Part shown: in pieces, positions 3,001 through 5,531 of the stretch
Layout of the letters: each line of letters starts with the position of its first letter
Position numbering within the stretch: the stretch's first letter is position 1
Virus record (IMG/VR): IMGVR_UViG_2671180429_000018
Strand: one strand, 5' to 3'
DNA: 5,531 bases
Origin: a virus
Taxonomy: Duplodnaviria > Heunggongvirae > Uroviricota > Caudoviricetes
Made by a program: the position numbers

Positions 3001-5531
3001 ATGGCGTTCAATGACCTTGAATATCAAGCAGTAAAAAAAGAAGTTCACCAATTCATTGAAAGCATAAGGCCGCCTGAACATATCCGCAATGAACTGGATA
3101 TTGTTTATAGCATCAATGACCAAACGATAGATATCGGCGAACAGCGCCCCGTGTGGCAGGGCAATCCAGGTGAAACAAACATCCTGCCATCAGCAAGAAT
3201 CAAGTACATACGTTCTCTGGATAGATGGAAAATCTATTGGATGCGGAAGGATATGAAATGGCATCAGTACAGTACTGAACTTTCGCTGACTGATGCGCTT
3301 GAGCTTGTGCGTGCTAACCCGGATTGCTGCTTCTTCGGATGAGTGAAGAGACGTTTGGATGATGGATGGTCGCAGAGATGCGGCCTGATTCTAAAATAGG
3401 ATATAAAAAATGAGAATACTAGGTGTTAGAGCGGCGCCCAAAGTTACATCTTTTGTTGTATATTGCACTAATGAGTCTGCACTCAAATGTGTTGATGTTA
3501 TTAAAATACCTTCGACCTTAGACACACCAGAAAAATTAAAGTATGTGAGAAATAACATCCTCGACATTCTTAATTTATATAATGTTGAATTAGCTGCCAT
3601 ACGCGTTACTGAATCAAACTCTGATAATCTTAGCATTGACCGCCTTTATATAGAAGCTGTTATTCAAGAAGCATTTTCAAGCAGTGATGTAAGAAAATAT
3701 TACACTATTAGAAAATCTGGCATGAAATCATCATTGAACCTAACAGAGATCGAGTATAAAGAAATATTGAAGTCACACCGCAATATAAATGGAATCGATA
3801 ATTCTGGTTTTACAACTGAAACAAATGAAGCTGTTTTGGCTGCACTATCTGCGGAGGTAAGGGGATGCTAACTCCATACAAAAGAGCTGATGTAGAATTC
3901 GAATGGATTAGTGATCTAGAAGAACAGGGTTGTTTTTCAAAAGTATATCTGGCTCATGACAGACACCTAGCTCATGACTTGGTGATTAAAGAAATAGAAA
4001 AAAAAGAAAACACTAACCACGACGACTACTTTAATGAAGCAAGGCTTCTCTATAAACATGCACATCCAAATATTGTGCAAGTTCAGTATGCTGCTCAATG
4101 TGAGAGCAATATCTATATAGCCATGCCATTTTATCATAATGGTTCGCTAAACCAATTAATGAAAAAAAATAATCTTACAAGCAGGGAGATAATACGGTAT
4201 TCCATTCAATTCTTAAGTGGACTTTATCATATACACTCAAAAGGTCTTATGCATTTTGATATAAAACCTAATAACATTATGATATCAAACAGAAATGAGG
4301 CCATGCTATCTGACTTTGGATTATCTCAGTTAGTCAATGAGGAATCGAGAGCTGCGCCTGAGTTTGGATATCATTTTCATGTGCCACCGGAATATTTTTC
4401 TTTATCAACAAATGATTATAATTTCACATATGACATATATCAGGCAGGATTAACCATATATAGAATGTGTGTTGGACATGATAATTTTGAAAGAGAAAGA
4501 TCTGCATTTAGCACGATTGAACAACTCAGAGAGTCGATAATTAATGGCTGCTATCCATTAAAAGAGTATCCTCCCCATATACATAAAAAATTAATAACAA
4601 TAGTGAACAAATGCATTCATGTAGATCCAAATGAAAGATATCAATCCGTACTAGATGTACTAAACGATCTCTCAGCTATAAGTGATGGCGTTCTTGACTG
4701 GCGTCTACAGATGACGAAACCAACTAACGGCACATGCGAATGGCAAAAAAAGTCTGGGGACGCTATACTGTCTATAGTTTTTGACGCAGAAAATTCGTCT
4801 ACTACTGGTTTTCGTTTATACGATGATGGGCGGAAAAGGCGTGCTACGAACTTAACAATATCCTCAGGATGTACCCCTACAAAACTGTATAGGTTATTAA
4901 AGGATAACTGATCATGAAAAAGCGCGAGGAAGTAAGCAAGCTGCCTCGCAGACGTGATGCAGCATTAGCGGTTCCCTACAAAAAAGATGAGTTCATAAGC
5001 CCTTCTGATGACAAAAAATTTTCAAAGGCGAAAAGTTTTACATCTACATCTCTAAAAGATAAATACTTTAAAATCTAGCCCGGCCTCAGCGCCGGGTTTT
5101 CTTTGCCTCACGTTCGCCCACCTAAAAAACATAACCAATTGTATTTATTGATGTAACTCGCTAAACCATGCAGTTATGATCCCTGCCGCATAACCTTCAT
5201 CAGCCACATTTTCAAAAATAAATTTCCTTATATATCAGAATCATACTTCGTAGAGTTAATAAATCACCAAAATTCGTACCAATAGTTCTTGATAATGTCG
5301 AACTATTGGTTCATTATTATCGTCGTCAGCAGGACGCATTACTCACCAGGGCGGTGAATATACAACGATTCGTGAACCGCCCCGGTTTTCCTGGAGAGTG
5401 TTTTATCTGTGAACTCAGGCTGCCAGATCATCGTTTCTGATGGAAGCATAATAAGCTTTTTCTGCTTCTGCCGGAGGAATATGGCCCAGCCTTTCCAGCA
5501 ATCGTCGATTGTTATACCAGTCCACCCACGT

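What the first reader, a model, noticed from the sequence alone, without database searches (positions are those of the whole stretch)
4615..4908. C-terminal extension of the kinase beyond the catalytic core
The kinase motifs end around residue 275 (…DPNERYQSVLDVLNDL). The remaining 75 or so residues, rich in Gly/Ser/Thr with a basic patch (DGRKRRATN), have no assignment. In signalling kinases such tails carry the sensor or substrate-docking function, and here it may determine what infection cue activates the kinase.
Basis: inference. Interest (0 to 1): 0.4.

Follow-up and report, generated by a model that had tools for sequence, protein, structure and literature searches.

The report
Orphan C-terminal domain of Stk kinase
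The last 73 residues of the phage 933W defence kinase Stk are predicted to form a small folded domain, not a loose tail; it occurs only in this kinase family, which is always encoded next to a small partner gene, so the domain probably helps control when the kinase fires.

Summary
The window is the immunity region of a 933W-type Shiga-toxin phage. The kinase (3865-4911) is 100% identical to 933W Stk, the known prophage kinase that aborts HK97 infection. In detail: the catalytic core ends near residue 272-275, and residues 276-348 (nt 4690-4908) match no Pfam family, PDB sequence or solved fold. "Tail" is the wrong word. AlphaFold2 predicts a compact beta-meander plus C-terminal helix, with pLDDT about 95 in context and 90 alone. 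The domain has constant length in about 170 homologues. Two Trp residues are near-invariant (W279, W293) and there are conserved basic positions (K295, R317, R326). It is under purifying selection (dN/dS 0.17-0.21 against 0.06 for the core). A profile search of 1.84 billion proteins found it only at the C-terminus of this kinase family. New context: in 90/90 kinase-seeded and 76/76 assessable partner-seeded loci across Proteobacteria, Bacteroidota and one Bacillus phage, the kinase directly follows the 153-aa ORF at 3410-3871, usually with overlapping stop and start. That ORF is weakly RuvC-like, with Arg where RuvC has its catalytic Asp. My best reading, which is inferred, is a family-specific regulatory or docking domain of a two-gene kinase defence module. 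The sensor role is untested.

The parts
3865..4911 (+). stk: eukaryotic-like protein kinase, 348 aa, 100% identical to phage 933W Stk (NP_049482)
   Evidence: All catalytic residues are invariant in 105 homologues (K42, E58, H130/D132, K134, N137, D150-F151-G152, P175-E176, R258). The catalytic loop reads HFD, so this is a non-RD kinase.
4615..4689 (+). First part of the finding's interval. It is still catalytic core: residues 251-275, subdomain XI with invariant R258 and N267, last core helix 262-270.
   Evidence: The Pfam Pkinase match runs to residue 260. PADLOC kinase models run to about 272-276.
4690..4908 (+). C-terminal domain proper, residues 276-348: a short strand at 280-281, four beta strands, then a terminal helix. 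It is an orphan domain specific to the Stk family.
4693..4701 (+). LDW motif (L277, D278, W279) that links the last core helix to the domain
   Evidence: In 105 homologues L277 is 92% conserved, D278 91% and W279 100%. W279 is 97% conserved in a wider set of 91 non-redundant sequences. It is replaced by Ile in L168/L170.
4732..4755 (+). Strand beta1 (residues 290-297) with near-invariant W293 (nt 4741-4743) and conserved basic K295
   Evidence: DSSP. W293 is 100% / 97% conserved and K295 is basic in 73%.
4762..4821 (+). Strands beta2 (300-307) and beta3 (312-319). Buried positions are I304 and F306. R317 is basic in 68%. The SSTTG turn lies between the two strands.
4825..4851 (+). Only R326 is strongly conserved as basic (86%).
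4876..4905 (+). C-terminal amphipathic helix (residues 338-347). L341, L344 and L345 are conserved hydrophobic positions. The protein ends 0-9 residues after the helix in most homologues.
3410..3871 (+). Obligate partner gene, 153 aa, annotated 'RuvC-like'. Its stop overlaps the stk start by 7 nt. A GGAGG lies 7 nt upstream of the stk ATG.
   Evidence: It is found directly upstream of the kinase in 90/90 kinase-seeded loci, and the kinase lies directly downstream in 76/76 assessable partner-seeded loci. Identity to Pseudomonas and Acinetobacter copies is 41-44%. Invariant residues are G5, R7, P10, P34, P40, L43, R47, D52, A62, E68, R78, E82, E87, Y97, E140. The RuvC match is below threshold.
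4914..5078 (+). Small Lys/Ser-rich ORF (54 aa) that starts 2 nt after the stk stop; the last gene before the terminator
   Evidence: It is conserved at 38-70% identity in the same position in enterobacterial relatives. It was not detected in distant clades.
5077..5098 (+). Intrinsic terminator tM, which ends the cI-DUF3024-partner-stk-small ORF transcript from pRM
   Evidence: 8-bp stem with a T run; 933W annotation
3001..3342 (+). DUF3024 gene (113 aa) between cI and the partner gene. It is part of the enterobacterial cassette only.
   Evidence: Pfam DUF3024 E 1e-30. PADLOC candidate PDC-S43 E 4e-41. Present in Proteus-type relatives. Absent from the Pseudomonas, Acinetobacter and Elizabethkingia modules.

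Best explanation
Residues 276-348 of Stk form a compact accessory domain specific to this family. It consists of a short strand after an LDW motif, a four-stranded beta-meander and a C-terminal amphipathic helix, and it is held in a fixed position on the kinase core. This is shown at the level of prediction and conservation. Stk is one half of a conserved, translationally coupled two-gene module. The other half is the 153-aa protein encoded just upstream, which looks like a RuvC/RNase-H-type protein that has lost its catalytic acidic residues. This co-occurrence is shown. Because Stk is a non-RD kinase (HFD), it is unlikely to be switched by activation-loop phosphorylation, and it is reported to be silent in lysogens until HK97 infects. 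I infer that the C-terminal domain is the regulatory or docking surface. It would couple the catalytic core to the partner protein, to the phage-derived trigger, or to both. That would keep the kinase off in the lysogen, release it on infection, and let it phosphorylate cellular targets and abort the infection. The faster evolution of the domain fits a role in setting partner or trigger specificity.
For: Identity with the known exclusion kinase: 100% to 933W stk. Stk is reported to be activated on HK97 infection, nearly inactive before it (PMC3681748), and expressed from pRM only in lysogeny (PMC3430580).

Folded domain: pLDDT about 95 and pTM 0.90 in the full-length model; pLDDT 90.2 alone.

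Conservation: the alignment is nearly gap-free and the length is constant (homologues are 337-353 aa). There is a periodic hydrophobic pattern, W279 and W293 are near-invariant, and K295, R317 and R326 are conserved basic positions.

Selection: dN/dS is 0.17 and 0.21 for the domain against 0.057 for the core in the two unsaturated pairs.

Exclusivity: the domain profile recovers only C-termini of this kinase family, plus about 5 spurious repeat proteins, in 1.84e9 representatives.

Obligate partner: 90/90 and 76/76 loci, with overlaps of -1, -4 or -8 nt. Hosts include Gamma-, Beta- and Alpha-proteobacteria, Bacteroidota, Ignavibacteria and a Bacillus SPbeta-like phage. Settings include defence islands and prophages.

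Outgroup: PknB-like phage kinases at under 30% identity have neither the domain nor the partner.

Non-RD catalytic loop.

Weak, confounded support for partner-domain co-evolution: r(partner, tail) = 0.71, partial r given the core = 0.42. In MI-APC, 8 of the top 20 inter-protein pairs fall in the domain against 4.4 expected.
Against: No experiment or complex model links the domain to the partner or to a trigger.

The co-evolution signals are confounded by the domain's higher variability and by shared phylogeny. C-lobe segments 173-272 give similar partial correlations. Intramolecular MI gave no clear docking site.

If, as I recall but could not verify, plasmid-borne stk alone excludes HK97, the partner is not strictly required for that phenotype.

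The domain's orientation on the core rests only on pTM, because I could not inspect coordinates.

Co-occurrence of domain and partner was tested only inside one discrete family, so it cannot separate 'domain needs partner' from 'kinase needs partner'.
Confidence: 0.42

Rival explanations
1. A purely structural cap. The domain only stabilises the C-lobe and last core helix of this divergent kinase and has no signalling role. Regulation and sensing lie in the partner protein or elsewhere.
For: The LDW motif follows the last core helix directly, and pTM 0.90 suggests rigid packing on the core. The most conserved positions are hydrophobic, core-type residues. There is no recognisable binding-domain fold.
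Against: The conserved surface-type basic residues K295, R317 and R326, and D278, are hard to explain by stability alone. Kinase cores do not normally need such a cap, and every solved kinase aligns without one. The domain folds confidently on its own.
Confidence: 0.2
2. A substrate-recruitment or ligand-binding domain. The conserved basic positions bind nucleic acid, a phosphorylated protein or an acidic substrate, bringing targets (or phage DNA/RNA as the cue) to the active site.
For: The domain's net charge averages +2.8 across the family, against -1.5 for the partner. K295, R317 and R326 are conserved basic positions. From strand pairing in the meander, I infer that they form a cross-strand row. 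The partner is RuvC/RNase-H-like, which hints at a link to nucleic acids.
Against: There is no similarity to known nucleic-acid-binding or phospho-binding folds. The row geometry is inferred from secondary structure only. Positions 323-325 of the 933W 'RKRR' patch are not conserved.
Confidence: 0.2
3. A homo-oligomerisation domain. It would drive dimerisation and trans-autophosphorylation once the trigger relieves inhibition.
For: Small sheet-plus-helix modules attached to kinases, such as polo-box or KA1-type domains, often mediate self-association (this is general knowledge). A weak Foldseek match to Plk4 PB3 exists (E 0.67, prob 0.35).
Against: The polo-box match is far from significant. 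Non-RD kinases usually do not depend on activation-loop trans-phosphorylation. No oligomer was modelled.
Confidence: 0.1
4. A disordered, functionally dispensable low-complexity tail. This is the null reading.
For: G/S/T content is 27% against 14% in the core. Column entropy is higher (2.54 against 1.56 bits).
Against: pLDDT is 90-95 with defined strands and a helix. Length is constant, the Trp residues are near-invariant, dN/dS is about 0.2, and the domain is present in every family member examined.
Confidence: 0.03

Closest known systems
Phage 933W Stk (Friedman et al. 2011, Mol Microbiol 82:567, PMID 21985444; not held in the library, summarised in PMC3681748 and PMC6356687)
   Same: It is the same protein, 100% identical. 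It is a prophage kinase expressed from pRM. It is silent until HK97 infects and then causes abortive infection.
   Different: In the literature I could search, nothing describes the C-terminal domain or a conserved pairing with the upstream 153-aa gene. Both are new descriptions of a known gene.
PD-T4-6 (single-gene Ser/Thr-kinase defence system from the E. coli pangenome screen, PMC9519451; PADLOC models)
   Same: The catalytic domain matches many PD-T4-6 HMMs (best E 1e-37). Both are eukaryotic-like kinases that act against phage.
   Different: All listed PD-T4-6 matches stop at about residue 265-288 and none covers the whole domain. PD-T4-6 is defined as one gene, whereas this family is always a two-gene operon.
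Staphylococcal Stk2 abortive-infection kinase (Depardieu et al. 2016, cited in PMC9519451)
   Same: The concept is the same: a eukaryotic-like kinase kept off until a phage protein activates it, followed by broad phosphorylation and abortive infection. This comparison rests on my own knowledge.
   Different: No specific sequence relationship was tested here. The accessory regions differ, and I know of no RuvC-like partner for Stk2.
MADS Mad6 and BREX PglW defence kinases
   Same: These are the best PADLOC and NCBIfam kinase-domain matches (mad6 E 7e-50, MAD6 E 2.5e-35, PglW E 4e-12).
   Different: Scores are far below the family cut-offs (122 against 460 bits; 45 against 990). Those proteins are 600-1400 aa multidomain components of large systems.
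Eukaryotic kinases with C-terminal regulatory modules directly after the core (CaMKI autoinhibitory segment, MARK/Chk1 KA1, Plk polo-box, Gcn2 RWD)
RuvC Holliday-junction resolvase (for the partner gene)
   Same: RefSeq and PGAP label the partner 'RuvC-like' or 'RuvC family'. There are weak N-terminal matches (Pfam E 0.042; NCBIfam E 0.098).
   Different: The matches are below the family cut-offs. The positions of the first two RuvC catalytic residues are Arg: R7 is invariant and R65 is at least 90% conserved. It is therefore not a canonical nuclease.

Membership tests
Eukaryotic-like protein kinase (Pfam PF00069 Pkinase) | HMM score above the gathering threshold over the whole catalytic domain | tested here: met
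Eukaryotic-like protein kinase (Pfam PF00069 Pkinase) | Catalytic residues present: VAIK Lys, alphaC Glu, HxD/K/N catalytic loop, DFG, APE-type Glu, subdomain XI Arg | tested here: met
   K42, E58, H130, D132, K134, N137, D150-F151-G152, E176 and R258 are invariant in 105 homologues. The loop reads HFD, so the kinase is non-RD.
Phage 933W Stk (HK97-exclusion kinase) | Sequence identity and genomic position downstream of cI in the pRM operon | tested here: met
   100% identity over 2473 nt to 933W. The gene order cI - DUF3024 - partner - stk - small ORF - tM is the same.
Phage 933W Stk (HK97-exclusion kinase) | Kinase-dependent exclusion of HK97, with activation only on infection | not testable with these tools
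   Literature only (PMC3681748; PMC6356687).
PD-T4-6 (PADLOC) | Match to a PD-T4-6 kinase HMM | tested here: met
   The best PD-T4-6 model gives E 1e-37 over residues 20-273.
PD-T4-6 (PADLOC) | Single-gene system, with the full-length protein covered by the model | tested here: not met
   No listed PD-T4-6 model extends past about residue 288. The kinase is always paired with the 153-aa gene.
MADS Mad6 kinase (NCBIfam NF047741) | Score above the curated cut-off | tested here: not met
   122 bits against a cut-off of 460.
PknB/Stk1 PASTA kinases (NCBIfam NF033483) | Score above the cut-off, PASTA repeats, an upstream PP2C phosphatase | tested here: not met
   122 bits against 450. The protein has only 348 aa and no PASTA repeats. 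The PknB-like phage kinases used as outgroup have 549-807 aa and a PP2C gene upstream, and they lack both the domain and the partner.
Any Pfam or PDB sequence family for the C-terminal domain | Sequence or profile match | tested here: not met
   No Pfam hit at E of 1 or less. The best PDB profile hit has E 0.32.
RuvC resolvase (partner gene, Pfam PF02075 / NCBIfam NF000711) | Score above the cut-off | tested here: not met
   Pfam 14.2 bits against 22.2. NCBIfam 12.5 bits against 163. The PDB profile search found nothing.
RuvC resolvase (partner gene, Pfam PF02075 / NCBIfam NF000711) | Catalytic acidic tetrad (D7, E66, D138/H, D141 in E. coli RuvC) | tested here: not met
   The motif GIR(x)xP with invariant R7 replaces GIDPG. 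The weak hhalign register places RuvC E66 on partner R65.

The most novel reading that the evidence does not exclude
Stk and the upstream 153-aa pseudo-RuvC protein form a widespread two-component kinase defence module that has not been recognised before. It occurs in Proteobacteria, Bacteroidota and Firmicutes phages. In this reading, the orphan C-terminal domain is the surface through which the partner and/or a phage protein (for HK97, reportedly gp68, which I recall but could not verify) gates a non-RD kinase. Swapping the domain would then re-programme which phages trigger abortive infection.
Probability: 0.25. Interest if true: 0.7.

Novelty: new variant of a known kind. Interest (0 to 1): 0.5.

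Why it matters
Stk was one of the first prophage kinases shown to abort infection by another phage, yet how it stays silent and how infection switches it on is unknown. This work gives three leads. The 'unassigned tail' is predicted to be a discrete orphan domain that can be mutated. It is specific to this kinase family. The kinase is never found without a small RuvC-like partner. Together these turn the activation question into defined experiments: domain truncation, point mutants and swaps, partner deletion, and complex modelling. The results also suggest that defence-finder tools which file these genes under the single-gene system PD-T4-6 miss a second component. The cassette sits in the immunity region of Shiga-toxin phages and is present in 225 of 5,426 complete E. 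coli genomes.

Tried and rejected
(1) Friedman 2011, the primary Stk paper, is not held. Statements about gp68 and about plasmid-borne stk rest on my memory and are marked as such.

(4) Mirror-tree and partial correlations between partner and domain gave positive values. They were no better than for C-lobe segments and are confounded by rate differences, so I did not use them as proof.

(5) Inter-protein MI-APC showed modest enrichment of domain columns. Neff is about 76 and entropy confounds the result, so it is exploratory only.

(6) Intramolecular MI to locate the docking site on the core was noisy and dominated by indel columns. There is a possible link to the N-terminal segment (residues 1-24), but I draw no conclusion.

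(7) A profile search of the partner against PDB found nothing. hhalign against E. coli RuvC gave probability 1.4%. The 'RuvC-like' label is therefore only a weak fold-level hint.

(8) I looked for an overlapping or antisense gene under the finding's interval and found none of 40 aa or more.

(9) Both structure-prediction jobs went on the kinase and its domain, so the decisive kinase-partner complex could not be modelled.
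Full report
**What the window is.** The 5.5-kb window is the immunity region of a 933W-type Shiga-toxin-converting phage. On the minus strand it carries O, cII and cro. On the plus strand it carries cI (2233-2940), a DUF3024 gene (3001-3342), a 153-aa gene (3410-3871), stk (3865-4911), a 54-aa ORF (4914-5078) and the terminator tM (5077-5098). An IS629 end follows. Over 2473 nt the region is 100% identical to phage 933W, and the kinase is 933W Stk. In the literature I could read, Stk is a prophage kinase described as a tyrosine kinase. It is expressed from pRM during lysogeny, has little or no activity in uninfected cells, is activated when HK97 infects, and then aborts the infection (PMC3681748; PMC6356687; PMC3430580). 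The primary paper (Friedman et al. 2011, PMID 21985444) is not held.

**Checking the observation.** The Pkinase match covers residues 21-260. The subdomain-XI Arg (R258) and N267 are invariant, and the last core helix is 262-270. The finding's interval starts at residue 251, so its first 25 residues are still core. The extension proper is residues 276-348 (nt 4690-4908). It is G/S/T-rich (27% against 14% in the core) and net basic (+4), and DGRKRRATN lies at 321-329. Nothing annotates it: there is no Pfam hit, no PDB sequence relative even with a family profile (best E 0.32), and no PADLOC or NCBIfam model that covers it.

**It is a domain, not a tail.**
- Length: homologues found in 5.8 billion proteins are almost all 337-353 aa long down to about 40% identity.
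- Alignment: in 105 full-length homologues the extension aligns almost without gaps. W279 and W293 are invariant, and L277 and D278 are conserved in more than 90%.
- Variability: mean column entropy is 2.54 bits against 1.56 for the core, and identity to 933W is 28% against 56%. The pattern is still that of a fold. Conserved buried positions are L277, W279, L281, W293, I304, F306, residue 331 (Cys in 82% of family members, Thr in 933W), residue 336, L341, L344 and L345. Conserved polar positions are D278, K295 (basic in 73%), R317 (68%) and R326 (86%).
- Structure prediction: AlphaFold2 with this alignment gives pLDDT 89.8 and pTM 0.90 for the whole protein and about 95 over the extension. It predicts strands at 290-297, 300-307, 312-319 and 324-326 and a helix at 338-347. 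Residues 274-348 folded alone give the same topology with pLDDT 90.2 and pTM 0.76.
- Selection: in the two homologue pairs where synonymous sites are not saturated, dN/dS is 0.17 and 0.21 for the domain against 0.057 for the core. The domain is under purifying selection but accepts amino-acid change 3-4 times faster.
R326 is the conserved basic residue, while positions 323 and 325 are basic in under half of the family.

- First loci examined: in Pseudomonas, Acinetobacter, Elizabethkingia and Vibrio, the kinase is directly preceded by a 152-155-aa gene that is 41-44% identical to the window's ORF 3410-3871, and the stop and start usually overlap.
- Kinase-seeded scan: a scan of one genome per species gave 80 further loci from Gamma-, Beta- and Alpha-proteobacteria, Bacteroidota and Ignavibacteria. 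All loci held at that point (90, plus the window itself) have the partner gene directly upstream, and 90 show the C-terminal domain at the very end of the kinase. L059 had the partner but gave no domain hit at the threshold used, and I did not follow it up. Typical gaps are -4, -8 or -1 nt.
- Partner-seeded scan: a reverse scan of viral contigs seeded with the partner gave 80 loci. In 74 the kinase with its domain lies directly downstream. Four are cut by a contig end. Two carry the kinase with a diverged domain (LDIRY instead of LDWR).
- Firmicutes: a Bacillus SPbeta-like phage (43.6% identity) also has the partner plus the kinase, with a diverged but recognisable domain.
- Outgroup: the next most similar phage kinases, at under 30% identity, are PknB-like proteins of 549-807 aa. 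Five of the seven have a PP2C-type gene upstream, and none has the domain or the partner.
- In this window: the partner's stop overlaps the stk start by 7 nt, and a GGAGG lies 7 nt upstream of the ATG.
- Settings: the module sits in defence islands next to Abi_2, LlaJI-type and type I restriction systems, and in prophages.
- Composition: its GC content here is 33-36% against 44-55% for the flanks, as expected for an acquired accessory cassette.

**The partner protein.** It is well conserved, with a mean column identity of 53%. Invariant residues are G5, R7, P10, P34, P40, L43, R47, D52, A62, E68, R78, E82, E87, Y97 and E140. RefSeq calls it 'RuvC-like', but the matches are below threshold (Pfam E 0.042, NCBIfam E 0.098, nothing in PDB). 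Where RuvC has its first catalytic Asp (GIDPG), the partner has an invariant Arg (GIRxxP). A weak hhalign register puts the second catalytic residue on another conserved Arg. If the fold assignment is right, it is a pseudo-nuclease.

**Mechanism.**
- Shown: the extension is a conserved, selected domain, confidently predicted and specific to the family. The kinase has all catalytic residues but an HFD (non-RD) loop. The kinase is always co-encoded, with overlapping reading frames, with the 153-aa protein.
- From established knowledge: non-RD kinases are generally not controlled by activation-loop phosphorylation and rely on other inputs. Small modules appended after the last core helix gate many kinases, for example CaMK, MARK/Chk1 and Plk.
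- Inferred: the C-terminal domain is the regulatory or docking surface that couples the core to the partner and/or the phage trigger. This would account for Stk being silent in lysogens and activated by infection. The domain's faster evolution fits a specificity role.
- Attempted test: I looked for partner-domain co-evolution. The domain's distance matrix tracks the partner's as well as the whole core does (r 0.71 against 0.73; partial r 0.42). Domain columns are over-represented among the top inter-protein MI pairs (8 of 20 against 4.4 expected). C-lobe segments behave similarly, and variability confounds both measures. I treat these results as compatible with the hypothesis, not as evidence.
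- Rivals: a purely structural cap, a basic substrate- or ligand-binding module, and a dimerisation module all remain open. The 'disordered dispensable tail' reading is effectively excluded.

**Comparison with known systems.** The gene is already known as 933W stk. PADLOC-type tools would file it under PD-T4-6, a single-gene kinase system. Those HMMs match only the catalytic domain, and the single-gene definition does not fit. Matches to Mad6, PglW and PknB-type families are far below their cut-offs. Functionally it works like Stk2 or PD-T4-6-type abortive-infection kinases. Architecturally it is a distinct variant: a short non-RD kinase with an orphan C-terminal domain and an obligate pseudo-RuvC partner.

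**Verdict.** Novelty: a new variant of a known kind. Interest is about 0.5, because an old, mechanistically unresolved exclusion kinase now has two concrete, testable regulatory elements.

Noticed in passing
window 3410-3871 (+): The 153-aa gene upstream of stk is an obligate, overlapping partner of this kinase family (90/90 and 76/76 loci across several phyla). It is labelled RuvC-like, but it has an invariant Arg (R7) where RuvC has its first catalytic Asp, and R65 where RuvC has E66.
   Followed up: yes
window 4914-5078 (+): A 54-aa Lys/Ser-rich ORF starts 2 nt after the stk stop. It is conserved at 38-70% identity in the same position in enterobacterial relatives (Proteus penneri L011, viral loci L128-L143), so it is probably a real third or fourth gene of the cassette. 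It was not detected in distant clades, although Elizabethkingia L009 and Pseudomonas L003 have unrelated small ORFs in the same place.
   Followed up: partly
window 3001-3342 (+): The DUF3024 gene between cI and the partner matches the PADLOC candidate defence family PDC-S43 (E 4e-41). It travels with the module only in enterobacterial prophages (37-40% identical copy in Proteus-type loci) and is absent from the Pseudomonas, Acinetobacter and Bacteroidota modules.
   Followed up: partly
L093, L103, L111, L121 (viral contigs); protein cluster P0013: Some E. coli prophages carry an stk ORF truncated at the N-terminus (220 or 278 aa, otherwise 100% identical). The 220-aa form is a cluster of 330 member sequences. 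stk therefore appears to be a pseudogene in part of the O157-type population.
   Followed up: no
window ~5373-5531: The end of the window matches an IS629 transposase region (Stx2a_F422-type phages). In 933W itself the match stops at window position ~5372, so this copy has an IS629 insertion between nutL and N.
   Followed up: no
window 3400-4800: The partner and stk have 33-36% GC against 44-55% in the flanking immunity and replication genes, which is consistent with a horizontally acquired accessory cassette. GC rises to about 42% over the C-terminal domain and the small ORF.
   Followed up: no
L168 3458-4513 and L170 (Bacteroidota-type viral contigs): These kinases keep the partner and a C-terminal domain of the same length, but LDIRY replaces LDWR. 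The first 'invariant' Trp is therefore not absolutely required.
   Followed up: partly
L171 2004-3556 (Bacillus phage SPbetaL6): The two-gene module, with a 4-nt overlap, also occurs in a Firmicutes SPbeta-like phage (kinase core 43.6% identical). This extends the family beyond Gram-negative hosts.
   Followed up: partly
window 4255-4263 (stk residues 131-133): The catalytic loop reads HFD rather than HRD, and F131 is conserved in at least 90% of homologues. Stk is therefore a non-RD kinase, a class usually regulated by means other than activation-loop phosphorylation.
   Followed up: partly
stk residue 331 (window 4855-4857): Cys is found at this position in 82% of family members, but 933W Stk and its closest relatives have Thr. 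The significance is unknown.
   Followed up: no
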